A DNA stretch of 64,000 bases from an uncultured delta proteobacterium (lineage in GTDB: Bacteria; Desulfobacterota; Binatia; UBA9968), in assembly GCA_963847445.1 (NCBI GenBank), contig CAWJZV010000002.1, forward strand, positions 64,001-128,000. Direction: 5' to 3'. The notes below the pieces were generated by a model, which searched no databases, was not told where the DNA came from, and worked only from the letters and a program-made list of their open reading frames with translations. A program made the translations under genes and the position numbers. Below are positions 26,173-56,671 of the stretch, in pieces (position 1 is the first letter of the stretch; the number at the start of each line of letters is the position of its first letter).

Positions 26173-26288
26173 ATCAAGTTAATATAGTGAGCTGGGTTCG
26201 AACCCCGCTCACGACCAAAGGGGATGCTCGTCCCCCTTTGGAAACCCCATCAATATTGTGCCCGCCCCAAGGGACGGGGAAAACTTGA
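26173..26288 (-). mobile_element. Non-autonomous three-hairpin element (diverged copy, 116 bp)
   Basis: Same architecture and ends as the copies at 35069, 49044 and 56330. Confidence 0.7.
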
Positions 26289-26289
26289 T

Positions 26290-27720
26290 TCAACTAATAC
26301 CCGCCAGGTCCTTCGCCAATCTAACGAACGGGCTTAGATCGTAGGCACTCACGAGCCTCTGTTTGTTGGTGGCCAGGCTGGCGACGTTGTACATCTCAAA
26401 TAGCAGCTGGCGGGAACCAAACGAGTCGCAGGCATACTCCCACGCCAGCTTCAACATGCGAAACATTTCTTGCGTGCGCTCGTTCTCCCCCACGAAATAG
26501 CGCTGGATTTGCTGACCGACCTCGGGATTATTCATATCGGCCTGGCTCGGTGACATCAGGATACCGGAGCCGCACAGCTCCCGTATCAACTGTAACATCT
26601 GGGGATAGCCCTCTATCGAGAAGATGCGGGCTGCTTGCGCCGGTGTCCAGTTAGGCAGGGTCAAGCCCGATTGAGAGCGAATAGGGTTCATTTCCGCGGC
26701 ATGGATGAATGCTCTCAACGTCTCCATGTAGACGATGGCGTCGGCCAAGGCTATTTGCACATGCGGTTGTTTGGAAGTGCCGAGATATTCGGCCATCGCC
26801 GCGCAGATGCCGAGCAACACCTCCGCTTTGACCGCCAGCCGAACTAGAACATACCATGGCCCGATGCCCATGGCTCCTTGGAAGAGCCGCGCGTACAGAC
26901 CAGGATCTTCGGGATGGGATTGACGCAAATAGAAGACCCGATCCCAAGGGATAAACACGTTGTCGAACAGCACCATGGCGTCCATCTCGTCCCAGTGCGG
27001 ACTCAGCGGATGGTCCTCAGGGTTGGGTGGCGTCATGGATTGGCGGCAAACGAGCTGGATGCCTTGGGCATTCACCGGCACTGCGAAATAGACCACCTCA
27101 TCGGGCTGAAGGTTGGGTCGTGGCTGGGTCAGGCAGAGGATTTCATTGGCGTAGGGTGCCTGGGTTCCCACGCCTTTGGCCCCGCGCACGACGATGCCGT
27201 CGGATCGCCGCTCCACCACCCTCAAGTATTCTTGCTTGGATTCCGGATGGCTTCGGTGATGAAACGGATCGTTGAAAATGGTGGCGATGCTCAAATCGTT
27301 TTCGCGGCAATACTCGAAGTAGCGCGTGACATTCTCCGCGAAAACCGGATTCTCGTGGCCGAAGATGTCGCGGCTGTCGTGCAGCCCCAAAATAACCGTA
27401 GCCAAGTGCTGCGGCAGACGAGCCGCCACACCTCCAGCACGGCGCACTAGGAACTCGTACATCTTGCGCTGCCGGGTCAGATCGTCCACCGATTGCGGCA
27501 GCAGGTAAGCCAGACTTACCCGCTCGCCCGTCACCGGCGAAGGCATCGTCAGCAGCTCCTGATGGGCCGGATCATGCTGCAGGTCATAAACCGCGGCAAC
27601 GCTGCGAGCACAGCCAGCCAAACTCGGATGCGCCGTGACGTCCACCAATTCGCCTTGCAGCCACACCCGACGCCCGTCTCTAAGACTTTCGAGATACCCT
27701 TCTCCACGACGTATAGACAT
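26290..27720 (-). CDS. 4-hydroxyphenylacetate 3-hydroxylase (HpaB/PvcC) family FADH2-dependent monooxygenase
   Basis: GEGYLESLRDGR, DGIVVRGAK, DHPLS..DEMDA..FDNVFIPW and FGSRQ. Confidence 0.9.
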   Translation of the reverse strand: MSIRRGEGYLESLRDGRRVWLQGELVDVTAHPSLAGCARSVAAVYDLQHDPAHQELLTMPSPVTGERVSLAYLLPQSVDDLTRQRKMYEFLVRRAGGVAARLPQHLATVILGLHDSRDIFGHENPVFAENVTRYFEYCRENDLSIATIFNDPFHHRSHPESKQEYLRVVERRSDGIVVRGAKGVGTQAPYANEILCLTQPRPNLQPDEVVYFAVPVNAQGIQLVCRQSMTPPNPEDHPLSPHWDEMDAMVLFDNVFIPWDRVFYLRQSHPEDPGLYARLFQGAMGIGPWYVLVRLAVKAEVLLGICAAMAEYLGTSKQPHVQIALADAIVYMETLRAFIHAAEMNPIRSQSGLTLPNWTPAQAARIFSIEGYPQMLQLIRELCGSGILMSPSQADMNNPEVGQQIQRYFVGENERTQEMFRMLKLAWEYACDSFGSRQLLFEMYNVASLATNKQRLVSAYDLSPFVRLAKDLAGIS

Positions 27721-28068
27721 TTACACAACTCTCAGTCAAAAATTGCGGTTACCAAAAATGAATGCGACCCGTGTTAGCGGCGAGCCCTTCAGCTCGGTCG
27801 AAACTATCCGATAACTTGAAACAATGTCAATTTGCCGGGAAAGCGAGGCCGGATGGAAGGCGGCCCCGACTGCGCCAGTGTGCTATTGAAAACTCGCTTG
27901 TGGGCTAAACCGAGTCTATACGGAACTTAACGTTCAGCATAAGCGGCCGCGATAGCGCTTCGTCCTATTGCTGTTGTTCGGAAGCAGTTGACATACTCAA
28001 CGAGTATCATTCAAAACGCATAAAGCTTCCTGTGTCGCTATGGCCAGGATCGCCAAGGATCGGTCTTG

Positions 28069-28466
28069 TTATCGCCCAAAATCTTCCGCCCTCAATTCAA
28101 TCGGTTTGCCATGCGGCGTTCGCTGCATCGCGCGCTCCCAGGCTTGAAAATGTTCGGTAAGCGCTTGCGTCGACGCCGCGCCTTTTGCCGCGACCATGCG
28201 TTCGAGGGTCGCGAGCCAATGGTGGTAGTAGGTTTCGCCGGTGTCGGGATCGCCGGCGGCCTGGGCTTTTTTAATTTCCTCGCCAAGCATCGCGGACCAC
28301 TCGGGCCAGACGAACAGACCTTTTTCGTGCAGCGCCAGCGCCATGGCGAACGCATGGGCTTCCCAGGGCGCGCGAAAGACTGGGCCGTTTGCGTCGCGCG
28401 GAATGCCGGGAACGGCTTCGGCGGCGCGCCGCGCGGATTCTGGTTCAAGTACAACGTTTCAGACAT
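28069..28466 (-). CDS. Nitrile hydratase accessory protein (P14K/NhlE-like); frameshifted
   Basis: F.WPEWS..LGEEI, YYHHWLATLE and RTPHGKPIEL; ATG overlaps the beta-subunit stop. Confidence 0.8.
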
Positions 28467-29117
28467 GTTCGAGATAAGGTTCAAAGGCTTCGATGGAGAC
28501 TTTCGACTTTGGCTCGGCGTCCGCGCCCCAGAGCTCTTGAGCATCGAAGCGCACGGTGTAAAGCCACTGCGGATCGTCGCCTTTACCGGCGGCTACCGAA
28601 TCGGGAAAGGCGTGGGTGCCATGCAGGCGCTCGACGACGCCTACGTGGCCACGCGCATAGCGCGGCAGGCGCGTGTGTGTTTGGGATGAATGTTCTTCGT
28701 GCGCACGCGGTCGCCGAGCTTGAATTTGGCCGGTCCTTGGGCCGGCCGGTAAAACGAGCCGCGTTTGGTGACCTTGTCGACATCGTCCAGTGAGAATGGC
28801 CCACGAGTTAAATTTTTCGCCGGACGCAGGGCGCGGCCCGCCTCGACTTCGTCAGCGTCGATGAGACCGCGCTCGATGAGCAGGTTTTGATTGCGGACAA
28901 ACCATTTCTCGTAGTAGGGCCGACTTAGATAAAAAGCCGGCGCCATCATCTCGATGGCATAGCGGCTGGTGTCGATGGTCCAGGCGCGGAAGACGCCAAT
29001 CGCCCGGCTCATCGCCAGCACGCGTCCCTCCCAGCGATGATGAAAAACCGGCTCGTTGGGCTCGGGCTCGACCTTGCCGAAACCGTCCATGCCGCCCATG
29101 TCGTGGACGCCGTCCAT
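28459..29117 (-). CDS. nthB: Nitrile hydratase subunit beta; frameshifted in the 3' third
   Basis: MDGVHDMGGMDGFG, FHHRWEGR, YYEKW and PQWLYTVRF..ELWG..EPYLE. Confidence 0.9.
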
Positions 29118-29743
29118 CAGGCCACCTCGCTTGGGTTTTTCGGCAGGCCGGTGCCGACCATACTGTCGCGCGTAATCAACTTGGCAAGCTGCGCCTCGCT
29201 CCAGCCTTCGGTTCCAGCCGGACGCATGGGCACAACCAGGTATCGGGTCTCTGCCGTCGAATCCCAAACCCGGACCTCTGTCTCAGCAGGCAAGGTTACA
29301 CCGAAATCCGCCAGGACCGCGCGCGGTTCTTTCACCACGCGCGAGCGATAAGCGAAGGACTTGTACCAGGTCGGCGGCAGGCCGAGCACATCGGTCGGAT
29401 AACAGGAGCACAGCGTGCAGACGATCATATTGTGCTGCTGCGGCGTGTTCTCGACGGCAATCAGGTGCTCGCCCACGCGCCCGACTTGTTGCGCTATCGT
29501 CGCCACCGCCTTGCTCGCGTCGTCGAGAAGAGCTTGGCGAAACCCAGGATCGCACCACGCCTTGGCGATCACCTGCGCGCCGATATGCGGGCCGATTTTG
29601 GTTTCGTAAAGCTCGACGATGCGGTCGAGCGCGGCGGGTTCGATATAGCCCTTATCGACGAGAATCGTTTCCAGCGCGCGCACCCGGAGATCCATCTCGG
29701 TTAGATTGGAGCCCTCATCGTGATCATGTTCATGTTCAGCCAT
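29117..29743 (-). CDS. nthA: Nitrile hydratase subunit alpha, cobalt type
   Basis: Metal-binding motif VCTLCSCY (Thr/Tyr indicates Co type), LGLPPTWYKS and VWDSTAE. Confidence 0.95.
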   Translation of the reverse strand: MAEHEHDHDEGSNLTEMDLRVRALETILVDKGYIEPAALDRIVELYETKIGPHIGAQVIAKAWCDPGFRQALLDDASKAVATIAQQVGRVGEHLIAVENTPQQHNMIVCTLCSCYPTDVLGLPPTWYKSFAYRSRVVKEPRAVLADFGVTLPAETEVRVWDSTAETRYLVVPMRPAGTEGWSEAQLAKLITRDSMVGTGLPKNPSEVA

Positions 29744-30000
29744 GGGCGAAATATAGCCAACGAAAGCTTCGGCGTCTACCAGAAAACGAAAGCGCGGATA
29801 CCAGCCACCTAATCAAGGGACCCGGTCAGGTCTAGATTCGCGACCGCCAACAGGCGATTTTTTGACGACGATCGGGATCGCACGCCTCTCTTGAAATAGA
29901 TCTCATTTCGTCTGAATGTTTGGTACTTGCCCAAAACTATCCAAGCGTTGTATGATTATGACATTCGAACCATCCACGACTAGAACTTGTGCGTTAAATT

Positions 30001-30276
30001 ATGACCGATAAACAATTGATCTCCCGGGTGCGAGTCGATCCGAGGATCTGCTCGGGCCGTCCCTATATTTACGGCACCAGAATACATATCGCGATCATTC
30101 TCGACGCGCTCAGCGAAGGCCTTGCTCCGGAAGAAGTCCTCGAACACTACCCCGATCTTGAGACGGACGATCTGCGCGCCGCCGTCGCCTACGCCTGCAA
30201 GCTCGCTGAGGAGAATGGCGGGTTGGCGGTGCTTCACCCGCAACGCAGCATCAAAGAGTGCTGTCAGCTAAGATGA
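30001..30276 (+). CDS. DUF433 domain protein (antitoxin-like HTH)
   Basis: RVRVDPRICSGRPYIYGTRI...EEVLEHYPDL..DDLRAAVAY. Confidence 0.85.
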   Translation: MTDKQLISRVRVDPRICSGRPYIYGTRIHIAIILDALSEGLAPEEVLEHYPDLETDDLRAAVAYACKLAEENGGLAVLHPQRSIKECCQLR

Positions 30277-30671
30277 CATGAATCGCGCTGGGTTCTAGCC
30301 AAACCGTCACCGTGGACTCCCTCACTCAGGTCGCAGAACTGACCGCGCGGCCGTTCTACCGAGCCGACAAGTTCAAACCCAGGGCAATCGATAACCATGC
30401 GGTGATGTTCGCGGGCGCTGAAGATCTCCCGGATCTTTCCGTCAAATCTAAGTGGGCTACCCTGACCTGGCCCGGACGACGCGACACGCACAGCGTTGGC
30501 GCGGATAGAGAGATTTACCCGCGATCCCACGAGAAATTTCTCCGATACCAGTATAGCTAGCGCACCGATCGCAACTCTGGTGGATTTTCCATCCGACGCT
30601 CCGACGGTTCCGGCGAGGCAATTTTCCAAGCCGACTATTGCGGCGACCAGATCGTTTGAAACTACTATCAC
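30264..30671 (-). pseudogene. Remnant of the C-terminal TOBE-like region of an ABC ATPase (ModC/WtpC-like)
   Basis: VAAIVGLENCL.G.V and SIRANAV pattern; no N-terminal ATPase domain upstream. Confidence 0.4.
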
Positions 30672-30744
30672 ACAAACTCACGCGCTTCCGCCGGCGGCGT
30701 GCGGCTGTCTGAGCCGGTAGATCATCGTCCGTGACATGTGCGCC

Positions 30745-31528
30745 CTACACCGGCCCACGCTCGCCAAAGATCCAGTGCCGCTTCATCTGCGCGCCATAGG
30801 TCAAACCGAAGCGGCGCTTGGCCACCTCGGTGATCACACTGACCGCCTCGTCGGCGGAGTCGGTGACGGTGATCCGTTCAAGATCGATAGCGTCGATGGT
30901 CCGCGCCTTGACCAACCGCTCGGACATGAATTCGAGCAACGGCGCCCAAAACTCCTTGCCCATCAGAACCAACGGAAACTCACGAATCTTCGCGTTCTGA
31001 ATCAAGGTCGCGGTCTCAAAAATCTCATCCATGGTGCCAAAGCCGCCGGGCAAGGCGATGAACGCATAGGAGTATTTCACCAGCATGACTTTGCGCACGA
31101 AGAAATAACGGAAGGTAACCCAGTGGTCGAGATAAGGATTATGCTCCTGCTCCTGAGGCAGGACGATATTGCAGCCGATCGAGCGGCCGCCAACATCTTT
31201 GGCGCCGCGATTGGCCGCTTCCATGATCCCTGGGCCGCCGCCGGTCATCACCGTGAAACCCGCGGTGGCCAGATCCGGCGCCCACCTGGCGCGCCATGCG
31301 ATAGTAAGGATTGACTTCGGTAAAGCGCGCCGAGCCGAACACGGTGACGCACGGGCCGGCAAAATGAAGCGCGCGAAAGCCGCGGATAAACTCGCAAAAG
31401 ATCCGCGCCGCCCGCGCCACCTCGGTTAAGCGGCGCTGCGGCCCCTCGAGAAAGCGCACAACCTCCGGCGATCCGGGGGTTACGCCCCAACCATCGATCG
31501 CGACGATCTCATCGTTCTCATTCGACAT
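30745..31528 (-). CDS. LOG family protein (TIGR00730-like); frameshift near 31285
   Basis: CVTVFGSAR, TGGGPGIMEAANRGA, FFVRK and PGGFGTMDE. Confidence 0.9.
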
Positions 31529-31600
31529 CGCTTCACAACTCCTGCGCTAGCTAGACTTTTTGACGGCCGATTCGCCAACGGCAAGAAACCGTCGAGAAAC

Positions 31601-34594
<2,994 letters not shown>

Positions 34595-34615
34595 GGCTCA
34601 CCTCCGCGCCGAAGT

Positions 34616-34644
34616 AAAAAAAAACCCAGACCTGGGCCTGGGTT
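34616..34644 (-). terminator. Intrinsic terminator-like hairpin in the guaB 5' leader
   Basis: Minus strand AACCCAGGC-CCAG-GTCTGGGTT followed by a T run, about 20 nt before the guaB start. Confidence 0.65.
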
Positions 34645-34682
34645 GTGGACGCACACCGATTGTTTCAAAGCAAACATGAAGT

Positions 34683-34711
34683 CTTATACCAAGAAATATT
34701 TTTCACGGCAA
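34683..34711 (-). promoter_or_regulatory. Putative sigma70 promoter of guaBA
   Basis: TTGCCG-17 bp-TATAAG on the minus strand. Confidence 0.55.
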
Positions 34712-34764
34712 GAACAGCCAAGATTGAGCCACTGTCATCAATATGGTAGCTAAAGACACCGAAC

Positions 34765-34971
34765 ATGCCGCTTTACGAATACGAATGCACCAAGGGCCAT
34801 CGCTTCGAAGCGATCCAGAAGGTCTCCGACAAGCCGCTCAAGAAGTGCGACAAGTGCCGCGCCGGCGCCAAACGAGCGGTGTCGCAGACCACCTTGCTGC
34901 ACAATCACGGCGTCCATGTCTTCGACCGGGTCACCGGCGACGATGTCCTGCGCGGCCGCCCGTCATCCTGA
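34765..34971 (+). CDS. FmdB family zinc ribbon protein
   Basis: MPLYEYEC..GHRFE..Q...D.PL..C..C. Confidence 0.85.
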   Translation: MPLYEYECTKGHRFEAIQKVSDKPLKKCDKCRAGAKRAVSQTTLLHNHGVHVFDRVTGDDVLRGRPSS

Positions 34972-35068
34972 AGTCCTTCAAGAAAGACAAGTTCTAGCGC
35001 ACTCGCAAAAGCAGCGGCGCAGCTAACGTGGCCCAATCCGCCATTTTCCGTCTCGTATCAATTATCCG

Positions 35069-35185
35069 ATCAACCGAGCATTTCGCGATCGGGGTATGAA
35101 CTCCGCTCGCGACCAAATGGGATGTTCAACCCCCTTTGGAAACCCCAGCAATTTTGTGCCGCAGCAAGCTGCGGGGAAGATTAGA
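35069..35185 (-). mobile_element. Non-autonomous three-hairpin element (117 bp)
   Basis: Near-identical to the copies at 49044 and 56330. Confidence 0.8.
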
Positions 35186-35250
35186 TTCAAAAGAATCCGT
35201 TTGTGCTCGAGAGCCGCCTTTGTTAGCGTACGGGCGCTTCTCAACCGGTT

Positions 35251-47656: not shown

Positions 47657-47659
47657 TCT

Positions 47660-48469
47660 CTAATCCGGCTGACAGATTTTGCACGCGCGCATGCCGGCTC
47701 GTTTCGCCTCTCTAGCATCGGCGAAATACAAGATGCGCGCTCGGTCGACGCGCGCGGCGGTCCGGCAATTGACCCGGCAGTAGATTTTGCTTCCTTGGTG
47801 GCCCCAGACGACGTTGTCGGGAAGGCGCACAGCCGCCTGCGCCAGCGCAAAACCCTCGCTGCGCAGTAGTTGCAACTTACGCGGGATGCCCCCGCCATAG
47901 CCGCCGATCCCGCCGTCCGAGGCGATCACGCGGTGGCATGGAACATAGATCGGCACCGGATTATTGTGCATTGCATTACCGACCGCTCTCGCTCCCTTGG
48001 GCGCCCCGGCGGCGGCGCCCAAAGCCTGGTAGCTGACCACAGCGCCGCGCGGGACTTCCTGGAGCTTATGCAAAATATTCTTTTGGAACGTAGTGGCCAC
48101 CAGTGTCAAGTCGACTTTTTGGCGCAGCGCTTTTGCCTCTCCGGCGAGATAACGACGAATCTCTTCGCCGACCTCGCTAATCGTCCGTCGATCGTCGACG
48201 AGATCGAGTTCGCATCGAAGTTTTGCCATCGTAACCGCCAGGTCGTCACCGTCGAGCAAGTAATGATTGAGCGCGATGCCTCGGCCAGTCATGGCCACGA
48301 GCAGATCACCCAACGGTGATTTCACGATGCCCACCGCCGCGTCCGGGCGCCGAATCTGTTTCAGCGCATGATCGACCCGGCTGCGGGATTGACGCAACAA
48401 TGCATCGATTCCATGTTCTTCTTGGTTTCTGCCGATTGACCCGATGAGCTTTTCGATTTTCATAAACAT
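47660..48469 (-). CDS. Methylated-DNA--protein-cysteine methyltransferase with N-terminal extension and C-terminal Ada zinc-binding domain
   Basis: PCHRV active site; C-terminal IYCRVNC...GMRACKICQP matches the Ada four-Cys motif. Confidence 0.88.
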   Translation of the reverse strand: MFMKIEKLIGSIGRNQEEHGIDALLRQSRSRVDHALKQIRRPDAAVGIVKSPLGDLLVAMTGRGIALNHYLLDGDDLAVTMAKLRCELDLVDDRRTISEVGEEIRRYLAGEAKALRQKVDLTLVATTFQKNILHKLQEVPRGAVVSYQALGAAAGAPKGARAVGNAMHNNPVPIYVPCHRVIASDGGIGGYGGGIPRKLQLLRSEGFALAQAAVRLPDNVVWGHQGSKIYCRVNCRTAARVDRARILYFADAREAKRAGMRACKICQPD

Positions 48470-48990
48470 CACCACATCGACTTGATTTTTCTGATCGCCT
48501 GGGAAACATTCGCGCGCGCGCCCTGGGCCGAGCAGTCCATCGCGGCAGCTATCTCCGCGTAGTCCAGACCGGCGAAGCAGCGCAGCTGCAGCGCTTCGCG
48601 TTGTTTCGGCGGCAGTGAGCCAATCAGCTCGCGCATGCGCACAACCGCGTAACCGTCGTTTTCACTAAACCCACGATGATGAGCTTTGCCGAGCCGATCC
48701 GGCTGCGGATTTTTCTTTTCGACAACAACGATCACCCGCGCTCGGCGCGCACGGTCACGCGCCCGATTACGACACAGGTTGATAGCGATGGCGTATAGCC
48801 ACGGCCTGACGTCGCTCTCCGGCTCAAGCCGCGGATAGGCGCGATAGGCGCGCAGCCAGGTTTCCTGAAACAAGTCCGCGGCGTCGGCGCCGTTGCCCGA
48901 CAAGCGCAGCAGATAGCGCAGGATCTCCCGTTGGTGGCGTTGCATGATCTGCTCGAAGGGAAGCGGTATTGGTAATTTCTCGCGCGCCAT
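48469..48990 (-). CDS. ECF-type RNA polymerase sigma factor
   Basis: DAADLFQETWLRA, WLYAIAIN and LPPKQREAL.L..F.GLDY.EIA; stop overlaps the next ATG (TGATG). Confidence 0.92.
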   Translation of the reverse strand: MAREKLPIPLPFEQIMQRHQREILRYLLRLSGNGADAADLFQETWLRAYRAYPRLEPESDVRPWLYAIAINLCRNRARDRARRARVIVVVEKKNPQPDRLGKAHHRGFSENDGYAVVRMRELIGSLPPKQREALQLRCFAGLDYAEIAAAMDCSAQGARANVSQAIRKIKSMW

Positions 48991-49043
48991 ATGTCTCTTT
49001 AAACCCCGCAAACGGGCAAATGTGAAAAATCTCCGTCCAAATA

Positions 49044-49161
49044 ATCAACCGGGCATTTCGCGATCGGGGTATGAACCCCGCTCGCGACCAAAGGGGATGT
49101 TCAACCCCCTTTGGAAACCCCAGCAATTTTGTGCCCGCAGCAAGCTGCGGGGAATATTGGA
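49044..49161 (-). mobile_element. Non-autonomous three-hairpin element (118 bp)
   Basis: Copy with the most complete hairpin pairing. Confidence 0.8.
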
Positions 49162-49182
49162 TTGAAAGTTGAACCGTCCGCA

Positions 49183-49881
49183 TCAGTTTAGATCGAACAG
49201 GATAATCTCAGCGTCTTCGACGGCCGTGAATTCCAATAGCTCTTCCTGACTGACGGCGGCGCCGTCGCCCGCCCGCAAAAGCGTGCCGTTGAGCGTGCCG
49301 GCGCCCCGCGCGATATGCGTCCAGGCGCGGCGGCTCGGCTTTAGGCGAAAACTTGCCTGCGCGCCGGAGGCAAAGCGCGCCGCCCAGATCTCGACATTCT
49401 GATGCACTGTGACCGATTCATCGCGTCCTGCTTCCGAACCGATGAGAATCCACTTGTTGCGCTGCTCAGCGAGCGGGAATGGCCGTTGCTCGTAAGCCGG
49501 CGCCAGCCCCGTCTTGTTTGGCATGATCCAGATTTGCAGGAAGTGCACCGGCTCGGTTGGCGACGCGTTGTATTCGCTGTGACTGATGCCGGTTCCCGCG
49601 CTCATCCGTTGGACATCGCCGACGTGAATGACCGAGCTCGTCCCCGTGCTGTCTTTATGCGCCAGCGCTCCTTCGAGCACGTAGGTGACGATATCCATGT
49701 CGCGGTGCGAGTGGGTCGGAAACCCGGCGCCGGCAGCGACGCGGTCCTCATTGATCACTCTGAGATCGCTGAAGCTCATGTGTTGCGGGTCGTGATAGTC
49801 ACCGAACGAGAAGGTGTGACGGCTGTCGAGCCAGTTCAGTTTAGTTCGTCCCCGATCATTACTGCGGCGCAGTTGGATCAT
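49183..49881 (-). CDS. Pirin family protein (YhhW-like)
   Basis: WLDSRHTFSF, LRVINED, GFPTHSHRDM, MSAGTGISHSE and FLQIW. Confidence 0.95.
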   Translation of the reverse strand: MIQLRRSNDRGRTKLNWLDSRHTFSFGDYHDPQHMSFSDLRVINEDRVAAGAGFPTHSHRDMDIVTYVLEGALAHKDSTGTSSVIHVGDVQRMSAGTGISHSEYNASPTEPVHFLQIWIMPNKTGLAPAYEQRPFPLAEQRNKWILIGSEAGRDESVTVHQNVEIWAARFASGAQASFRLKPSRRAWTHIARGAGTLNGTLLRAGDGAAVSQEELLEFTAVEDAEIILFDLN

Positions 49882-49990
49882 GTGAGCCTCCCGATGGAAT
49901 GATTTCGTTTATGTTCTTGTCAGGCAGCAGCGCCGCTCAGGACAATGCAAGTGAATAAGTTGCTACGCATAATATCCACCGGTGCTCGAG

Positions 49991-50510
49991 TTAGTGAAGC
50001 CATGAATGACAAAGCTGCACTAACGCCGGCATGACGATCCAAGTAAGACAGAGAACAATTGCCGCGGCGACGAGGGCAGAGCTCACGGGGTACGGAAGAC
50101 CGGAGAGATACGGTACGAGTACAACCGCGATAAGCGCACTGGTCGGCCAGACACCGACCCAGGTCAAAAGCGCCATCTTCCATCGCGGCGGCGAATCCGT
50201 GGTGTGAAACCAAGCCTCGAGACCATGCAGTTCTCGATAAGTCCGTTCTCCTTCGGTCAATGTGGCTACCTGCTTCTGCCATTGTCCGAACCGGTCCGAG
50301 CTATAGAACTCGTCTCGCTCATGCTCGTTGGTGAAAGTTCGCAGAACACCGTACTCGCGAGTGTTCGAGCCCTGCGGGCGGAGATATGAGATGCACCCCC
50401 AAGACTCCGTCACGGGCGAGCGAATCCTTGAACAATTCTCGCAGACTTTCCTCGAAGGCGCGCTCGCAACCGGGTTTTACTTTACGGGTGATCGCCACAT
50501 GGATTGGCAT
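49991..50510 (-). CDS. Antibiotic biosynthesis monooxygenase-like membrane protein; frameshifted
   Basis: HVAITRKVKPG.E..FE, GLEAWF and PPRWKMALLTW. Confidence 0.75.
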
Positions 50511-50547
50511 AGTCGTCCTCGTATATGACCGTTGTGTTTCAATCGCG

Positions 50548-50823
50548 TCAGACAAAGCATCCACAGCCGAACCACCAGGGGCTCGCCATGGCGCGGCGCG
50601 TGCCACAACTTCCCTCGGCGGCAAGTTTGGCCGAGGCGATCATATGACTCGTTCGCGCCGCTGCCGTGGTTGGAGAACCCGATCGCCAATGGCCGCCGTA
50701 ATTCTTAACCGGAGACCAGTCCGGCGACACGGGCAACGGCGGCGGCGCGAGCCGGTCGAACGGCGCCGCCGCGTACACGACTTTGCCGCCGACCATCGTC
50801 AACAAAACCGCAGCATGCCGCAT
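50548..50823 (-). pseudogene. 3' remnant of an amidohydrolase_3 (NfdA/YtcJ-like) gene
   Basis: LTMVGGKVVYA, PLPVSPDWSPV and terminal GCGCFV; N-terminal bulk missing. Confidence 0.6.
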
Positions 50824-50875
50824 TGGAGATTATTAATGTTGCTTGCCCGGCGCGACCCTTGCCTCAACGCTTCCG

Positions 50876-51901
50876 TTAGTGATCCATTGTCAGCACGGCG
50901 CGAAAACGCGCCTTGCCGCTCATCATGTGTTCGTAGGCTTCGGCGGCACGCTCCAGCGGAAAGATTTCATTCATCGCCCGCACGCCGGTGAGCACGCTGA
51001 AGGCGAGCGTATCCTGCGAATCGATGGAGCTGCCGGAGGGCCAGCCGATGATCGAGCGTCTTCCCAGCAGCAGCGGAATCGCCGGCACTTGCAGCGGCTC
51101 GGCGGCGGCACCGAGGATTATCAGTTTCCCGTTGACGCCGAGACCGCCCAACGACCGCGCTCATCGCTTCGCCGCTCGTCACGGTCGCGAGGATGACCTT
51201 CGCGCCGCCGAGCTTCAGCAACTCCGCGGCCGGATCTTGGGCTTGACTATCGATGTAGATGAGCCGCACCGAGCTTCCGCGCCAGCGGTTCCTTGTCCAT
51301 CCCTCGCGCGATGGCAACGGTTCTAAAACCCATCTTCGCGGCGAACTGAATCCCCAAATGGCCAAGGCCGCCGATTCCAAGTATGGCGACGAGATCGCCG
51401 GGCCGCGCGCCGCTGTTGCGCAGCGAGTTGAAAGTGGTGACGCCCGCGCACATCAGCGGCGCGGCCTCGACGGCTGAAAGTTCGTCCGGAATCAGCGCCA
51501 ACGCACCGGCCGGAGCGATCATGTATTCGGCGTAGCCGCCGTCGTAGGCGATGCCGGGCACTTGGAAGGCGATTTGGCAGGTAACAAAATCACCGCGCCG
51601 GCAGGAATCGCAGTAACCGCAGTTGCCACCGTGCCAACCGACTCCGACCCGTTGGCCCACTGTCCAGCCAACGACGCCTGTCCCCAGCGCATCGACAATT
51701 CCGGCGATCTCATGTCCAGGCACCCGCGGGTATTGAATACCCGGCCAGGCTGCCTTCCTTGGTAAAAGAATCGCTGTGGCAAACGCCGCAAGCTTCAACC
51801 TTGACGCGCACCGAACCGGCGCCGGGTTCCGGGATTTCGCGTTCAACAATTTCAAAGGGTCCATTCGGACGAGTGACTTGCGCTACACGCATCTTTGCCA
51901 T
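50876..51901 (-). CDS. Zinc-dependent alcohol dehydrogenase; multiple frameshifts
   Basis: ACGVCHSD, PGHE, C..C..C..G...C, APLMCAG, GIGGLGH and FRAVL. Confidence 0.85.
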
Positions 51902-51926
51902 AATTCCTCCTCGATTTATGCCAACC

Positions 51927-52985
51927 TCAAGCGATCGGGACCTTCGGCGGTTCCAACTGCTCGGGCTGGTTTCCTGAAATTGCGGCTCGAGAACCCTGGG
52001 TCTGCTCGTGCGGTGTGCCGAGCGCAACCTGACTGGTCTCATTGAGTCGCGCGAGCTGATTTTCCGCGAGTTGTAGGTTAAGGGCGCTTAGCGTCCCCGC
52101 GAGTTGTTCGGGCGTGCGCGGACCGAGGATTGGAATCAGCGCCGTCGTCGATTCTCGCGCCTTGTGCAGCAGCCAGGCGATGGCGACCTCCGTCGGCGAC
52201 GCTCCACCATCCTTCGCCACCGCCATCACCGCATCGAGGATCGCGCTCTCGCGCGCCGTCTTCTCGGTGTGGACCAATCTGGCAAGCACCGAGTTGATGC
52301 GCCCCGCGTCGCTCTGGCGATATTTGCCGGTGAGAAATCCGCCGCCGAGGGGCGACCATAGCGCGACTCCCAAGCCGAGCGCTTCGGCCATCGGCAATAG
52401 CTCGCGATCCGCCGTGCGCTCGGCAAGGCTATACTCGATCTGAATGCCGGCGAGCGGCGACCAGCCGCGCAATTCCGCCAAGAGATCGCCGCGGGCAACA
52501 CGCCAGGCGGGAAAGTTGGACAGACCGGCGTAGAGAATCTTGCCGGCGCGCACCAGGTCGTCGAAGCCGCGCAAGATTTCTTCCATCGGCGTCGTGCCGT
52601 CGGCGAAGTGCGCCCAGTAAAGATCGATGCGATCGGTCTTGAGCCGTTTAAGGCTGCCCTCGACGGAACGCACCATGTTCTTGCGGCTGTTGCCGGTGCG
52701 TGAAATGCCCTCACTGGCGGTGGTTCCCAAGGTATATTTCGTGGCGACGACGAAATAATCGCGATCCGACGCGATAAAATCACCGACCAACTCCTCGGAC
52801 TCGCCGAACTGGTAGCTATCGGCGGTGTCGATAAAGTTGCCGCCGGCTTCGACGTAGCCATCGAAGACTTTTTTCGCTTCCGCGCGCTCGGCGCCATGGC
52901 CCCAGCGGGTGCCGAAGTTGCCGGCGCCCAAGGCAAGCTCGGATACGCGCAAGCCGGTTCGGCGTCCAAAGATTTTGTATCGCAT
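51927..52985 (-). CDS. Aldo/keto reductase
   Basis: GLRVSELALG, NFIDTAD.Y, ATKY, SLKRLKTDRIDLY and WSPLGGG. Confidence 0.95.
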   Translation of the reverse strand: MRYKIFGRRTGLRVSELALGAGNFGTRWGHGAERAEAKKVFDGYVEAGGNFIDTADSYQFGESEELVGDFIASDRDYFVVATKYTLGTTASEGISRTGNSRKNMVRSVEGSLKRLKTDRIDLYWAHFADGTTPMEEILRGFDDLVRAGKILYAGLSNFPAWRVARGDLLAELRGWSPLAGIQIEYSLAERTADRELLPMAEALGLGVALWSPLGGGFLTGKYRQSDAGRINSVLARLVHTEKTARESAILDAVMAVAKDGGASPTEVAIAWLLHKARESTTALIPILGPRTPEQLAGTLSALNLQLAENQLARLNETSQVALGTPHEQTQGSRAAISGNQPEQLEPPKVPIA

Positions 52986-53093
52986 TGCACTACTCCTCAA
53001 TTTCAATCAAGCGTATCGCTGAAATCTTTTCGGCCAGTTGAACCAATTGATCTTGATCGACGGCTAGGATCCCTTCGCCAGCTAACTCCCGCA

Positions 53094-53250
53094 TCATGCG
53101 GCAAACCCGTCGTCGATTTTTAGACTGGCGCCGGTGACGAAAGCCGCTTCCGGACTCGCGATATAGGCAACCATGGCAGCGACTTCGTCCCCCTGGCCGT
53201 AGCGCCCCAGCGCGATCAAAATCATTGAACTGCTCCTCGTTGATTTGCAA
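53094..53250 (-). pseudogene. 3' remnant of an SDR oxidoreductase
   Basis: ALGRYGQ.DEVAAMVAYIASPEAAFVTGASLKID; 5' part missing. Confidence 0.6.
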
Positions 53251-53456
53251 CTATGCTGCCCGGACAATTTCAACTGTCGCTTGTGATTGATGAAGGCGAT
53301 TAATCTCACGCGCTCTGCGCATTGGACACCTGCGCAAAGTCCGTGGACTGCGCTAGCTTTCGCCACGCGGCGAACTCGCTCGCTACTTCGGCAAGTTTCG
53401 CCTCAACTCTACCTGGCAACCTGCCATTAACGATCATATTCGCCTGAGCGACCCAG

Positions 53457-54290
53457 CTACGCCTTGATGAACGCCAGCAAATCCTCGTTGATCTGATCCT
53501 TATGCGTCGTGCACATGCCATGCGGCAGGCCGGGATAAACTTTCAACGTGGAACCCTTGACGAGTTTGGCCGACAGCATCGCCGAAGCACCGATGGGCAC
53601 GATCTGGTCGTCGTCGCCGTGCATGATCAGGGTCGGCACGTCGATTTTTTTGAGATCTTCGGTGAGATCGGTTTCGGAGAAAGCCTTGATGCAAAAGTAG
53701 GCCGCCGGAAATCCGGCCATCATCCCCTGCAACCAGAACGAGTTTCGAACCCCTTCGGAAACCTTCGCTGCCGGCCGGTTGTAGCCGTAGAATGGCAACG
53801 TCAGCTCTTTGAAGAATTGCGAGCGGTCGGCGACGACGCCGGCGCGGATGCCATCGAAGACTTCCATAGGTAAGCCGCCGGGATTGGCCGCCGTCTTGAG
53901 CATCAGCGGCGGCACCGCGCCGATCAACACGGCTTTGGCCACGCGCTTGGTGCCGTGCCGGCCGATATAGCGGGTGACTTCACCGCCGCCGGTCGAGTGG
54001 CCGACGTGGATCGCGTTCTTCAAGTCGAGCGCTTCGACCAGCTTCGCCAGGTCGTCGGCGTAGGTGTCCATGTCGTTGCCGCTCCACGGCTGGCTCGATC
54101 GGCCGTGGCCGCGCCGGTCATGGGCGATGCAGCGAAAACCGCGCGATGCCAGATAGAACATCTGGTCTTCCCACGCATCCGCGCTCAGCGGCCAGCCGTG
54201 ACTGAAGACGACGGGCTGGCCGCTGCCCCAGTCGTTATAGTAGAGTTCGATGTCTTTAGAATGTTCTTTGCCGATGGTGATGTAGGGCAT
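53457..54290 (-). CDS. Alpha/beta hydrolase (non-heme chloroperoxidase family)
   Basis: [34 protein letters not shown] and PHG. Confidence 0.93.
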
Positions 54291-54346
54291 TAGCAATTCT
54301 CCTCTATATGATTAAATTAATGTCGATTTTAATAGCCAATCATTGT

Positions 54347-54604
54347 TTATTGGTGCTCCCGCATCATCCATTCCCGTATGTAGGGCGAGCAGTGCAGCAG
54401 TTCGACGTTGTGCTCTTCGCAGCCATTGAGAAACCGAACGACCTCGACGTCCACCAGCGTCACGCCGTCGAGGTCCAATCCAATGCCGTCCCAATCACCT
54501 GCCAATTGTGCTTTGAGTTCATCCAGATGCTCTGCTTGCAGCCGACCGCTCAGGTGGATGATCGTCTTTGGCCCGGCGGAAACTTTTTCAATTTTCAATG
54601 TCAT
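54347..54604 (-). CDS. Small STAS-like protein
   Basis: LSGRL....L..L...., LDL..VTLVD..VVRFL and YIREW. Confidence 0.7.
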   Translation of the reverse strand: MTLKIEKVSAGPKTIIHLSGRLQAEHLDELKAQLAGDWDGIGLDLDGVTLVDVEVVRFLNGCEEHNVELLHCSPYIREWMMREHQ

Positions 54605-54637
54605 TGCGATTTCTGTGACGGTAGCGACAAAACAGAA

Positions 54638-54734
54638 ATGCAATGAAGAGACCGCATGTAAGCTTCTGAAATATTTAGACTCAGAGATGAAGAGACTGCC
54701 GAACTTTCAGCATTTGCCGAATAATCGGCAAATG
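54638..54734 (-). promoter_or_regulatory. Putative sigma54 promoter with upstream activator palindrome
   Basis: CGGTCTCTTCATTGCA (GG-N10-GC) at 54654-54639; perfect inverted repeat CATTTGCCGA-ATAA-TCGGCAAATG at 54711-54734. Confidence 0.55.
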
Positions 54735-54804
54735 ATCAGGTCTGTCGACGCAGCGCTAAGGCACCAGAGCATTTAAGCGATCGGCGTCGAGCCGCCCTTT
54801 GTGG

Positions 54805-55476
54805 TCAATCATGTGAAGGCCCGGTTAGTTTCTCAAGCCGTTGCTGAAAATAGCTCTTCCAGCTTTGCGGAAGCGCCGCGACTTCAATGGCCTGGCGAAG
54901 CAATCCGATGTTGTGCTTTTCGTGCGTATAGAGGGCGGTGATATCGCTGAGCTTGAACCTGTCTTTGCTTGTTTCGATCAGTTCGATCGCGTCACCGCCG
55001 CCGACTTCACCCTCTTGCAGCACGGAAAAATAAAAACCCGTGCGCGCGCTCGCCATGAACCTCTTAACCATGTCAGAGCGGCCGAACTTGATGCCGAGCT
55101 TATAACAAGGCATACGGGGCTCGGTTACCATCACGGTGGCAGAGCCGACGCGAAACTTGTCGCCGATGTTTAGATCGGCTTCCAACACTCCCTTGGTCGT
55201 GAAGTTCTCACCGAACATGCCCCAGGGTAGTCTCATCTCAGGCAATTCGCGCTTCCAGTATTGGTAGTGCTCGGAGGGGTAAGCGTAGACCGCCTTGCTC
55301 GGTCCGCCGTGAACCGAGAGATCGGCCTGACGGTCGCCGTCGAGATTGAGGGTTCTCAGCACGACCCGGCCGGCCACCGGCTCTTTGAAAATTCCCGTTG
55401 ATATTGGATCGCCATTGCTCGTAACCACCCGGGGAAGACCAACATTAACGGAGACGAGCTTCATATCGGATTTCAT
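54805..55476 (-). CDS. MOSC domain protein (YiiM-like)
   Basis: TGIFKEPV, GDRQADLSVHGG..KAVY, FGEN, PRMPCYKL and TGFY. Confidence 0.93.
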   Translation of the reverse strand: MKSDMKLVSVNVGLPRVVTSNGDPISTGIFKEPVAGRVVLRTLNLDGDRQADLSVHGGPSKAVYAYPSEHYQYWKRELPEMRLPWGMFGENFTTKGVLEADLNIGDKFRVGSATVMVTEPRMPCYKLGIKFGRSDMVKRFMASARTGFYFSVLQEGEVGGGDAIELIETSKDRFKLSDITALYTHEKHNIGLLRQAIEVAALPQSWKSYFQQRLEKLTGPSHD

Positions 55477-55769
55477 AAACACCTCTTGTCCTGGTGACCA
55501 TCGTGTCGGCTTGTCTTGGTACGACTCGACGGCAAAATTCAACACCGTTGCCTCCACCCATGTATGTGCTGGAGTCCCATGACGATGAGCTAATAAATAC
55601 CGTGTTTCTTGAGCTGTAAATCCATATCTTTATTGGCGAAACCTTTGGAACCCTAATGCTCCTAGGCAACGATTTCGCCCGGTTGAGGCGCGAACTTATG
55701 TCACTCTCGCCATGGCTTCTGTCTAACGATCGTATGCAGGTGGCACCCTACGACTCTAGGTAGCACGAC

Positions 55770-56216
55770 CTATCTCTGAACGGGTGGCTCCACGAACGTC
55801 GCGATCGGCTGGCCTGTTTCGACGATATACGTCGACAGCATCTTCCCGGTTTCCGGGCCGATGTCTCGCGCATTATGAGGGGTCCGAGGGGGGATCAGAA
55901 ATCCATCCCCCGCATTCAGCACTACGGTGGCACGCCCCTGTACCATCATCTCTACCTGGCCTGCAATGATGTAGCCAACCTCTTCTCCTGGATGAACGTG
56001 CCATCCGGACTCGACTCCCGCCGGAATCAACGTCTCCACCTGCACCATCTCGCGGCTTGGAATCGATAACGGCGAGCGTTGGACCTCGCGCCGAGCAAGC
56101 TTGCCCGCCAGGTCGTCCCGTGTTCCCTTATCGGCCTGTCCAGATGCGGGGGCCATATAGGCGATCATGCCGGCCAGCGCCACAACCGCAACCAGCACGA
56201 AAACAATCCGTCTCAT
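55770..56216 (-). CDS. Secreted cupin domain protein
   Basis: Signal peptide; WHVHPGEE and IPPRTPHNA. Confidence 0.85.
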   Translation of the reverse strand: MRRIVFVLVAVVALAGMIAYMAPASGQADKGTRDDLAGKLARREVQRSPLSIPSREMVQVETLIPAGVESGWHVHPGEEVGYIIAGQVEMMVQGRATVVLNAGDGFLIPPRTPHNARDIGPETGKMLSTYIVETGQPIATFVEPPVQR

Positions 56217-56242
56217 AGCGTGCCTCCTAAACTCCGTCCGCG

Positions 56243-56671
56243 TTAGTGATGTTTTTCGGATGCGATCTTTTCGGGAATGACAAATGTGACCATGCCTTTG
56301 TCGAGTGGCTGATGGTTCGCGTCAACCAAATCAACCGGCCATTTCGCGATCGGGGTATGAACCCAGCTCGCGACCGAAGGGATGTTCAACCCCCTTTGGA
56401 AACCCCAGCAATTTTGTGCCCGCAGCAAGCTGCGGAGAATATCAGATTCAATCAGCACTTTGTGCGGACCGTGGAGAAGACCCTGCAGGATGATTGGCAG
56501 ACCACTCGCATCCGCCCACACCCATGAGGCATCGTCGACTCTCACATGAATGTGTCCGGCGCGCGGCGAGACCGTCAGAGCATTAGCGCCGAACACCGGC
56601 ACAATGTGCAGGTTCTCACTACAATATTGGATACCCACCACGCCGCGGGAGTCAAGCGGTTCGGCCAGCAC
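56243..56671 (-). CDS. DUF6130-like protein (5'-truncated) carrying an in-frame 117-bp element
   Basis: PVFG..AL.VSPR.GHIHV.VDD..W.WADASG and GPHKVLIE[39-aa insert]LVDANHQPLD. Confidence 0.7.
   Translation of the reverse strand: MLAEPLDSRGVVGIQYCSENLHIVPVFGANALTVSPRAGHIHVRVDDASWVWADASGLPIILQGLLHGPHKVLIESDILRSLLRAQNCWGFQRGLNIPSVASWVHTPIAKWPVDLVDANHQPLDKGMVTFVIPEKIASEKHH
56330..56446 (-). mobile_element. Non-autonomous three-hairpin element (117 bp), inserted in frame
   Basis: Removing it restores GTG CTG ATT GAA TTG GTT GAC (VLIELVD). Confidence 0.85.

What the first reader, a model, noticed from the sequence alone, without database searches (positions are those of the whole stretch)
26173..56446. 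Four-copy ~117-bp structured mobile element with fixed target and end motifs and no consistent TSD
Seen: copies at 26173-26288, 35069-35185, 49044-49161 and 56330-56446. On the minus strand each follows TTGAA (three copies) or TTCAA (one copy) and ends in TTGAT. Each has three hairpins (CCCGCAGC-TT-GCTGCGGG; CCAAAGGGG..CCCCTTTGG; TCGCGA..GGGG..CCCC..TCGCGA). The diverged 26-kb copy has different stem sequences that still pair (GTGAGC/GCTCAC, CCCGYCCC/GGGRCGGG). Known: IS200/IS605 HUH transposases insert 3' of a short motif without a TSD and recognise subterminal hairpins. Inference: an undescribed non-autonomous ssDNA transposon (PATE-like) or structured RNA, mobilised in trans and possibly abundant genome-wide.
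Basis: partly seen in the sequence, partly recalled or inferred. Interest (0 to 1): 0.75.

Follow-up and report, generated by a model that had tools for sequence, protein, structure and literature searches.

The report
Hairpin-rich 117-base mobile DNA repeat
A 117-base stretch of DNA that folds into three hairpins has copied itself dozens of times through this soil bacterium's genome, always landing just after the letters TTNAA without duplicating its target, which is the signature of single-strand 'peel and paste' transposons, yet no matching transposase gene could be found.

Summary
The four window copies are real, and their genome (a 7.19-Mb Syntrophobacter-like MAG) holds 49 near-full copies. 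Related genomes hold from none to roughly 280 candidate sites.

It is mobile. Seven G000 insertions are empty at the orthologous site in sister species. One soil-metagenome contig joins window 56328 directly to 56446, giving an exact 117-nt empty allele.

The element runs from TCTAAT to GGTTGAT. It sits 3' of TTNAA (51, 51, any base, 53, 50 of 53 unique sites) and is followed by T (47 of 53). It has no target duplication and no terminal inverted repeats.

Hairpins 1 and 3 covary strongly. The central hairpin 2 is nearly invariant across at least five subfamilies. The strand shown is the G-rich strand at 66 of 94 copies (p = 1e-4).

This fits a non-autonomous IS200/IS605-like (PATE-like) element. 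The partner is missing. TnpB was found in 0 of 31 congeners. Canonical IS200 TnpA genes were few, did not track the element, and the six loci fetched did not match it. The only Y1 enzymes in G000 are two subclass-2.1-like proteins, and neither is linked to copies.

No Rfam family, plasmid or viral match was found, and my paper searches found no description. The mechanism is inferred, not shown.

The parts
49044..49161 (-). Copy c49k, subfamily A, 118 nt, TCCAAT...GGTTGAT; used as reference copy
49162..49166 (-). Left-flank target motif TTCAA of c49k (host DNA, not element)
   Evidence: other copies' contigs diverge at the N position (loose ends at 49163)
49134..49151 (-). Hairpin 1 of c49k (CCCGCAGC-TT-GCTGCGGG), 10 nt from the 5' end; covaries across subfamilies
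49088..49114 (-). Hairpin 2 of c49k (CCAAAGGGG-loop-CCCCTTTGG); nearly invariant in 92 diverse copies
49058..49087 (-). Hairpin 3 of c49k (TCGCGAGCGGGG-TTCATA-CCCCGATCGCGA), followed by a 14-nt tail ending TTGAT; covaries
56330..56446 (-). Copy c56k, subfamily A, 117 nt; exact empty allele seen in a public soil metagenome (joint 56328->56446, 1-nt ambiguity)
56447..56451 (-). Left-flank target motif TTGAA of c56k, retained in the empty allele
35069..35185 (-). Copy c35k, subfamily A, 117 nt; orthologous site empty in G003 and G014
35186..35190 (-). Left-flank target motif TTGAA of c35k
26173..26288 (-). Copy c26k, diverged (about 83-85% to c49k), compensatory stem changes in hairpins 1 and 3; starts 5 nt after the TAG stop of the upstream ORF
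26289..26293 (-). Left-flank target motif TTGAA of c26k

Best explanation
This is a family of short, non-coding, non-autonomous transposable elements that behave like IS200/IS605-type 'peel and paste' elements (PATE-like). Proposed mechanism: an HUH/Y1-type enzyme supplied in trans binds the folded hairpins on one strand, the strand written TCTAAT...GGTTGAT, when that strand is single-stranded, mainly on the lagging-strand template. It cuts 3' of the flanking TTNAA and 3' of the element's own TTGAT. It then releases a single-strand circle, reseals the donor, and re-inserts the circle 3' of another TTNAA(T) without duplicating the target. Shown here: mobility, exact boundaries, the target motif, absence of TSD and TIR, covarying subterminal hairpins, an invariant central hairpin, and a moderate strand bias relative to GC skew. 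Inferred: the enzyme class, the single-strand circle, and the role of each hairpin.
For: Mobility. Seven G000 insertions are empty at the orthologous site in G003 and/or G014: c35k, and the copies at C45:207480, C9:54967, C14:273135, C40:7974, C36:27258 and C27:63695. One insertion, C3:14641, is shared with G003. Copies are 95-99% alike within G000. Copies 97-98% alike sit at other sites in species whose orthologous flanks are 85-95% alike.

Boundaries. A contig of run X3 joins window 56328 to 56446 and skips 117 nt, with 1 nt fitting either side. The C40:7974 site in G003 gives the same solution.

Target. In 53 unique subfamily-A sites, positions -5 to -1 are T51, T51, N (A16, C5, G22, T10), A53 and A50, and +1 is T in 47. 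Nothing further out carries information. The 20 subfamily-B sites give the same motif.

Hairpins. Covariation score is 0.138 against 0.044 in shuffles (0 of 500 reach it) and at most 0.036 when partners are slid. 116 cells have changes on both sides, against 35.6 expected.

Strand bias. The shown strand is the G-rich strand at 33 of 49 copies in G000 and 33 of 45 in five other genomes. Together that is 66 of 94, p = 1.1e-4.

Literature. In IS200/IS605 the left end always inserts 3' of an element-specific tetra- or pentanucleotide, only the top strand is active, and the lagging-strand template is targeted (PMC5027513, passages). PATEs have no inverted terminal repeats, have near-terminal palindromes, cause no target duplication, and are too short to encode a transposase (PMC3119063, passages).
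Against: No cognate transposase was found. G000 has no TnpB and the genus has none in 0 of 31 genomes. Y1_Tnp hits in G000 are two long subclass-2.1-like proteins plus two weak fragments, and their flanks show no similarity to the element. Matches of 145-176 aa scoring over 110 bits, typical of IS200 TnpA, occur in G014, G015, G018, G043 and G006, with one of 86 bits in G023. They do not track element presence, and the six loci I fetched do not match the element model. The closest relatives of the 275-aa Y1 protein (70-74% identity) are in genomes where I found no or almost no element. The two terminal hairpins are unlike each other, whereas homogeneous PATEs have similar ones. The strand bias is only 70%, and the copies are not independent. 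I could not find a convincing guide tetranucleotide 5' of hairpin 1 that pairs with TTNAA in the way AAAG pairs with TTAC in IS608. Three of the seven orthologous empty sites fit the boundary only to within 1 nt.
Confidence: 0.55

Rival explanations
1. The element is mobile and non-autonomous but is moved by an enzyme that is not an IS200/IS605-type Y1 transposase. Candidates are an IS91-like Y2 rolling-circle enzyme, an IS110- or IS607-type recombinase, or an undescribed enzyme. Any of these can also insert without a TSD next to a short motif.
For: No Y1 partner with matching ends was found. G000 does carry one IS91-family Y2 transposase gene (C30:198155, 188 bits) and one IS110-type hit (C15:7104). 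Small mobile repeats about 110 bp long, without target duplication and with unknown mobilisation, are on record in Haloquadratum (PMC3119063, passages). The nearly invariant central hairpin is not a standard feature of IS200/IS605 ends.
Against: The IS91-like locus is single-copy and shows no similarity to the element. Only five to six target positions carry information, which is much less than I recall for IS110 elements. The orientation bias towards the G-rich strand is what replication-coupled single-strand insertion predicts. The left-flank motif plus fixed right end matches the Y1 geometry.
Confidence: 0.22
2. The element is a REP/REPIN-like resident repeat that is serviced by a vertically inherited, domesticated Y1 enzyme. 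The candidates are the subclass-2.1 Y1+HTH proteins, which are the only Y1 proteins in G000. It would then be kept partly for a host function and would not be a conventional parasite with an IS parent.
For: Y1_Tnp genes are present in 26 of 31 congeners, mostly as proteins of about 300 aa. All 13 element-positive genomes have at least one, and the 5 genomes without any lack the element (Fisher one-sided p = 0.05). The G000 proteins carry the NHVH/NHYH and YI(H/V)LNP motifs, and the 275-aa one has a C-terminal HTH. That matches subclass 2.1, for which no associated repeat is known (PMC6006769, section 15 part 1). The element family is old, with at least five diverged subfamilies and spread across two families of the order.
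Against: Thirteen genomes have such Y1 genes but no element. The five Y1-free genomes include the least complete ones (60-93%). The Y1 genes are not flanked by the element, although flanking is characteristic of REP/RAYT systems. The element has no GTAG or CGTC tag and is not a pair of inverted REPs (read from the sequence). The closest orthologues of one G000 Y1 protein are in genomes where I found no or almost no element.
Confidence: 0.13
3. The element is a structured RNA gene or RNA-level element, such as a small RNA, a UTR stability element or a retro-mobile RNA. In that case the hairpins are selected in RNA and the copies spread through an RNA intermediate.
For: The fold is strong and covarying. 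G-T pairs slightly outnumber C-A in hairpin 1 on the shown strand (23 against 9). Six metatranscriptome runs hold about 6-9% of the words of a 1.6-kb query, which is roughly the element's share of it. I laid only one of them.
Against: There is no Rfam match at gathering thresholds, and the best E-value is 0.63 in permissive mode. There is no promoter-like or terminator-like site and no tRNA or tmRNA call. Orientation is unrelated to adjacent ORFs (26 against 21). In hairpin 3, G-T and C-A are balanced (19 against 22). The sharp motif-defined boundaries and exact empty allele fit DNA transposition. The relative excess of depth over the element in the RNA run is no larger than in the DNA runs.
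Confidence: 0.07

Closest known systems
PATEs (palindrome-associated transposable elements) of haloarchaea, non-autonomous relatives of IS605-type transposons (PMC3119063, passages read)
   Same: Both are too short to encode a protein. Both lack inverted terminal repeats and have palindromes close to both termini. Neither causes a target duplication. Both occur as homogeneous expansions of more than 90% identity alongside diverged subfamilies, have a conserved terminal oligonucleotide, and show core-deleted and truncated copies.
   Different: Here no IS605-type parent with related palindromes was found, and TnpB was found in 0 of 31 genomes of the genus. The 5' and 3' hairpins are unlike each other. 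A third, central hairpin is the most conserved part. The hosts are bacteria (Syntrophobacter-like deltaproteobacteria), not haloarchaea.
IS608 / ISDra2 (IS200/IS605 family, Y1 HUH TnpA; PMC5027513, passages read)
   Same: The left end lies 3' of a fixed tetra- or pentanucleotide that is not part of the element, and the right end is a fixed sequence inside the element. Both have subterminal hairpins, no TSD and no TIR. The orientation bias is in the direction expected for insertion of the active strand into the lagging-strand template.
   Different: This element carries no tnpA or tnpB. The target is TTNAA(T) rather than TTAC. From memory only, ISDra2 uses TTGAT and IS605 uses TTTAA. No guide-to-target pairing could be recognised, and the bias is only 70%.
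REP / REPIN elements with RAYT (TnpA-REP) genes (abstracts of PMC3337134 and PMC3733652 in the listing; PMC6006769 abstract and section 15 part 1)
   Same: Both are abundant intergenic palindromic repeats thought to be moved by a Y1 HUH enzyme acting in trans. Y1 genes of class 2 are present in the same genomes.
   Different: This element has no GTAG or CGTC tag and is not an inverted pair of REPs. It has three different hairpins in 117 nt. The Y1 genes are not flanked by the repeat. The Y1 proteins present look like subclass 2.1, for which no REPs are known.
Small mobile repeats (SMR-A) of Haloquadratum (PMC3119063, passages read)
   Same: Both are about 110 bp, cause no target duplication, reach many copies, have a strong target preference and have an unknown mobilising enzyme.
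   Different: SMR-A elements have prominent inverted terminal repeats and insert into PATE/IS605 palindromes. This element has no such repeats and inserts after TTNAA in ordinary intergenic DNA.

Membership tests
PATE / non-autonomous IS200/IS605-type element | Too short to encode a transposase | tested here: met
   117-118 nt
PATE / non-autonomous IS200/IS605-type element | No terminal inverted repeats | tested here: met
   The ends TCTAAT... and ...GGTTGAT are not inverted copies of each other. The AATC/GATT complementarity I tested, which reaches into the flanks on both sides, pairs in only 65% of cells across 92 copies.
PATE / non-autonomous IS200/IS605-type element | Palindromes (hairpins) close to both termini | tested here: met
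   Hairpin 1 starts 10 nt from the 5' end and hairpin 3 ends 14 nt from the 3' end. Both covary.
PATE / non-autonomous IS200/IS605-type element | No target-site duplication | tested here: met
   The exact empty allele skips 117 nt with 1 nt of ambiguity. Seven orthologous empty sites agree, three of them only to within 1 nt.
PATE / non-autonomous IS200/IS605-type element | Left end inserts 3' of an element-specific tetra- or pentanucleotide | tested here: met
   TTNAA: 51, 51, N, 53, 50 of 53 sites, and present in the empty sites
PATE / non-autonomous IS200/IS605-type element | Terminal palindromes related to those of an IS200/IS605 transposon (a cognate tnpA-bearing element) | tested here: not met
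   No match of the element model to four Y1 loci of G000 or to six IS200-type loci of relatives. TnpB was found in 0 of 31 genomes. MAGs often lack IS copies, so absence is not proven.
PATE / non-autonomous IS200/IS605-type element | Active strand preferentially on the lagging-strand template | tested here: inconclusive
   66 of 94 copies have the shown strand on the G-rich strand, p = 1.1e-4. GC skew is only a proxy, the contigs are not closed, and the bias is moderate.
PATE / non-autonomous IS200/IS605-type element | Guide sequence 5' of the hairpin foot that recognises the cleavage site | tested here: inconclusive
   I compared by eye the 4-6 nt 5' of hairpin 1 in subfamilies A-E with the flank motifs. 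No consistent pairing rule emerged.
PATE / non-autonomous IS200/IS605-type element | Excised single-strand circle with abutted right and left ends | not testable with these tools
   This needs raw reads or outward PCR. Assembled contigs are not expected to hold it.
REP / REPIN with RAYT | 20-40 bp palindromic unit carrying a GTAG or CGTC tag | tested here: not met
   The reference copy contains none of GTAG, CGTC or their complements (read). Definition taken from the abstract of PMC3733652 in the listing.
REP / REPIN with RAYT | Y1 (RAYT) gene flanked by the repeats | tested here: not met
   Adjacency in G031 is no more than expected at that copy density.
MITE of a DDE transposon | Terminal inverted repeats plus target-site duplication | tested here: not met
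Any Rfam RNA family | Score at or above the family's gathering threshold | tested here: not met
   0 matches in the window. Best E-value 0.63 in permissive mode.
IS91-type rolling-circle element | Ends shared with a Y2-transposase-bearing element | tested here: not met
   The single Y2_Tnp locus of G000 shows no similarity to the element. Other genomes were not tested.

The most novel reading that the evidence does not exclude
The element has HUH-style insertion geometry and recent activity, and it thrives across a bacterial order. TnpB was not found in the window's genus, and canonical IS200 TnpA there is sporadic and unlinked. The element would then be the long-sought DNA substrate of the orphan subclass-2.1 Y1+HTH proteins (TIRYT-like), or of a wholly unknown enzyme. 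Its invariant central hairpin would be the recognition module, and the covarying terminal hairpins would only position the two cleavage sites.
Probability: 0.15. Interest if true: 0.7.

Novelty: new variant of a known kind. Interest (0 to 1): 0.5.

Why it matters
The element shows that a compact three-hairpin DNA can spread with IS200/IS605-like precision in a lineage where I could find none of the usual machinery. Its target is short and well defined (TTNAA^T), its boundaries are exact, and it has many recent insertions. That makes it a ready substrate for testing which HUH enzyme, or other enzyme, moves it. The widespread subclass-2.1 Y1 proteins are one candidate, and their function is unknown (PMC6006769). 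In practice, the repeat explains contig breaks and depth spikes in Syntrophobacter-like MAGs. It also provides presence/absence markers that separate closely related strains.

Tried and rejected
Circle or tandem junction. An exact scan of metagenome contigs for right end abutting left end found nothing. Assemblies are not expected to hold single-strand circles, so this says little.

Plasmid and viral-contig searches found nothing.

Parent-element search in G000.
- Partial nhmmer hits at C33:131107, C2:133359, C30:188068 and C45:24528 are truncated or internally deleted copies, not ends of a longer element.
- A genome self-BLAST for multi-copy segments found GAF-domain paralogues and substrate-binding-protein genes, not IS elements.

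Right-end-only matches in G002 and G022 are 44-nt solo fragments between ordinary genes.

Y1 genes.
- Presence, orthologue distribution and neighbourhood gave no link.
- The IS91 and IS110 loci of G000 gave no link either.

c49k and c26k orthologous sites. The flanks are not collinear in G003, G044 and G014, so no clean empty site could be read. The C16:85824 site was also unclear.

Alternative boundary AATC...GGTT. It fits the C9:54967 site against G014 exactly, but the exact allele and the sites contradict it.

Strand assignment from G-T versus C-A pairs was inconclusive. RNAalifold on the gapped alignment recovered only part of the structure, so I counted the pairs on a structure that I supplied.

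RNA run X18 gave low, patchy cover, and no conclusion on expression can be drawn from it.

A closing stem (CTGGG/CCCGG) and an end-to-end stem (AATC/GATT) are not conserved, pairing in 63% and 65% of cells.

Papers. Searches found no description of this element. One search was a term-syntax error.

Full report
**1. What is in the window**

Their coordinates are 26173-26288, 35069-35185, 49044-49161 and 56330-56446.
- Three are preceded by TTGAA and one (49 kb) by TTCAA. All end in TTGAT.
- The 35-, 49- and 56-kb copies are nearly identical to one another.
- The 26-kb copy is diverged, but its stems still pair (CCCGTCCC/GGGGCGGG and GTGAGC/GCTCAC).
- The 49-kb copy folds far better than shuffled sequence, both as RNA (z = -5.6) and as DNA (z = -5.7).
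- Rfam finds nothing in the window at curated thresholds. In permissive mode it gives only chance-level hits, the best at E = 0.63.
- ARAGORN calls no tRNA or tmRNA.
- No promoter-like or terminator-like site lies in or beside the 49-kb copy.

**2. Abundance and distribution**

The window belongs to a 7.19-Mb assembly of 48 contigs with 57% G+C. Titles of public records that carry the element name Syntrophobacter sp. and delta-proteobacterial MAGs, plus one Binatia and one Spirochaetota MAG.

In the window's own genome:
- nhmmer finds 54 hits, and 49 of them cover at least 100 of 136 model positions.
- 28 matches are 91-100% identical to the 49-kb copy, itself included.
- By a crude ORF call, 43 of 49 copies lie outside ORFs.
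- Orientation is unrelated to the upstream ORF: 26 same and 21 opposite, p = 0.56.

Among 40 related genomes, 15 have a match: 12 of 24 congeners, 3 of 5 in a second family and 0 of 11 in a third. First-look candidate counts range from a handful to about 280 (G009) and 226-255 (G023). Genus tallies of 31 genomes include G005, which is flagged as unpublished.

At least five subfamilies exist, differing in end sequences and stem sequences. I label them A to E.

**3. It is mobile, and where it begins and ends**

I compared G000 loci with the closest species, G003 (flanks 90-96% identical) and G014. The element is absent from the orthologous site for seven insertions: c35k, C45:207480, C9:54967, C14:273135, C40:7974, C36:27258 and C27:63695. 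One insertion (C3:14641) has the same flanks as a G003 copy and so predates the split.

The sharpest evidence comes from public reads. A contig of soil-metagenome run X3 joins window 56328 directly to 56446. It skips exactly 117 nt, with one letter fitting on either side.
- In element orientation, the empty allele reads ...GATTGAA|TTGGTTGAC.
- The insert is therefore TCTGAT...GGTTGAT. TTGAA belongs to the host, and nothing is duplicated.
- The C40:7974 site gives the same solution (empty site CTTAAA|TGAGC).
- Four other sites fit at equal length near the junction. Three fit only to within one base in diverged intergenic DNA.
- A rival boundary, AATC...GGTT, fits one site exactly but is contradicted by the exact allele.

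**4. Target**

In 53 unique subfamily-A insertion sites drawn from all the genomes I held:

| Position | Counts |
|---|---|
| -5 | T 51 |
| -4 | T 51 |
| -3 | A 16, C 5, G 22, T 10 |
| -2 | A 53 |
| -1 | A 50 |
| +1 | T 47 |

- Positions further out carry no information.
- The 20 subfamily-B sites show the same motif.
- The variable third letter, among copies that are otherwise 97-99% alike, shows on its own that the motif is flank and not element.
- Subfamilies C and D appear to follow TTNAT instead. I read that by eye and did not check it with empty sites.

**5. Structure**

On an alignment of 92 copies less than 95% alike, I counted pairs for a three-hairpin structure that I supplied.
- 95.2% of cells pair, against 89.7% in shuffles (0 of 500 reach the observed value).
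- 116 cells have changes on both sides, against 35.6 expected.
- The covariation score is 0.138, against 0.044 in shuffles and at most 0.036 when partners are slid.

The three hairpins behave differently:
- Hairpin 1 and the outer part of hairpin 3 carry the compensatory changes. Examples are AU 49, CG 29 and UA 4 at one pair, and AU 55, UA 18, GC 9 and CG 2 at another.
- Hairpin 2 (stem CCAAAGGGG/CCCCTTTGG, loop of 8-9 nt) hardly varies in stem or loop across all subfamilies. Its sequence is therefore being read, not merely its shape.

G-T versus C-A counts do not settle which strand folds. A closing stem and an end-to-end stem are not conserved.

**6. Strand bias**

- The strand written TCTAAT...TTGAT is the locally G-rich strand at 33 of 49 copies in G000.
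- The same holds at 33 of 45 copies in G003, G004, G007, G014 and G021.
- Together this is 66 of 94, p = 1.1e-4.
- Agreement with the majority gene strand is weaker, at 30 of 49.

The G-rich strand has the sequence of the lagging-strand template. That is where IS608 and ISDra2 insert their active strand (PMC5027513, passages). The direction therefore fits. The bias is moderate, GC skew is only a proxy, and copies within a genome are not independent.

**7. The missing enzyme**

- G000 has no TnpB, and none of 31 congeners has one.
- Y1_Tnp hits in G000 are two proteins of 307 and 275 aa plus two weak fragments.
- These two proteins carry NHVH/NHYH and YI(H/V)LNP motifs, and the 275-aa one has a C-terminal HTH. 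This matches subclass 2.1 of Quentin et al., for which no associated repeats are known (PMC6006769, abstract and section 15 part 1). I did not run that paper's own profiles.
- Their flanks share nothing with the element.
- Across the genus, Y1 genes are in 26 of 31 genomes. All 13 element-positive genomes have one, and the 5 genomes without any lack the element. However, 13 genomes have Y1 genes and no element, and the Y1-free genomes include the least complete (Fisher p = 0.05).
- The closest orthologues of the 275-aa protein sit in genomes where I found no or almost no element.
- Matches typical of short IS200 TnpA occur in six congeners and do not track the element. The six loci I fetched do not match the element model.
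- The high-copy genomes of the second family have only the long Y1 type. Adjacency to element copies there is no more than their copy density predicts.
- G000's single IS91-type locus and its IS110-type hit are unrelated to the element.
- The assembly contains no multi-copy IS at all. That is common in MAGs and weakens every 'absent' statement above.

**8. Reading**

Several features together match how the IS200/IS605 literature describes its elements, and they meet the descriptive definition of PATEs:
- a left-flank motif that is not part of the element;
- a fixed right end inside the element;
- no duplication of the target;
- no inverted terminal repeats;
- subterminal hairpins;
- a replication-linked orientation bias.

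I therefore think an HUH-type single-strand mechanism is the most likely one (0.55). I do not file the element as a member of that family. The feature that ties PATEs to it, ends shared with a tnpA-bearing element, was tested and not met. The two terminal hairpins are also unlike each other.

Rivals are another enzyme class (0.22), a REP-like resident repeat serviced by the subclass-2.1 Y1 proteins (0.13), and an RNA-level element (0.07).

**9. Novelty**

- My paper searches found no description of this element.
- It matches no Rfam family and nothing in the plasmid or viral collections.
- Earlier notes of this scan hold no look-alike.
- ISfinder could not be consulted. Supplementary tables of PMC3119063 (PATE end sequences) and of PMC6006769 were not read and could bear on similarity to known ends.
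- The statements that IS605 targets TTTAA and ISDra2 targets TTGAT are recalled from memory and come from no call.

Noticed in passing
L139 (public MAG contig), about 230-330: A chimeric palindrome. The left half of a D-type copy and the reverse-complemented left half of an E-type copy share a single central hairpin 2. This suggests recombination or template switching at that hairpin.
   Followed up: no
L190 839-883 (G002:C463) and L191 1710-1753 (G022:C692): Solo 44-nt right ends (hairpin 3 plus the tail ending TTGAT, 95-98% like subfamily A). They lie between ordinary genes, and each is preceded by a flank ending in TTG.
   Followed up: partly
G000:C45:24440-24660 and G000:C2:133359-133428: Internally deleted copies in which hairpin 1 is joined almost directly to hairpin 3, with the central hairpin missing.
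   Followed up: partly
G000:C2:49258-50181, about 14 kb before the window's first base (L040 1468-2391): A gene for a 307-aa Y1_Tnp protein of the subclass-2.1 type (NHVH, YIHLNP). A 275-aa paralogue with a C-terminal HTH_23 lies at G000:C7:137859-138686.
   Followed up: yes
G000:C30:196860-198655: A possible integrase-like ORF (my reading of its start, not tested) directly followed by an IS91-family Y2 transposase ORF (188 bits, 302 aa). It is single-copy and next to a small ORF on the opposite strand.
   Followed up: partly
window 53155-54488: In all four laid runs, depth is 3-10 times that of neighbouring bins, with several joints and loose ends. This is another conserved or multi-copy segment, overlapping the minus-strand ORF 53457-54296.
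   Followed up: no
G000:C29:21688-21817 and G000:C8:150087-150217: Two element copies with the same flanks for at least 45 nt on each side, inside a duplicated segment of several kb (C8:147702-154957). This may be a real duplication or strain redundancy, since the assembly's contamination estimate is 6.9%.
   Followed up: no
G000:C9:133025-142948, C27:82926-86855, C8:172312-176223: The most repeated long segments of the genome encode GAF-domain proteins (paralogue arrays), not insertion sequences.
   Followed up: partly
window 26190-26215 (copy c26k, hairpin 3): The loop region reads GGGGTTCGAACCC, which resembles a tRNA T-arm. ARAGORN calls no tRNA there.
   Followed up: yes
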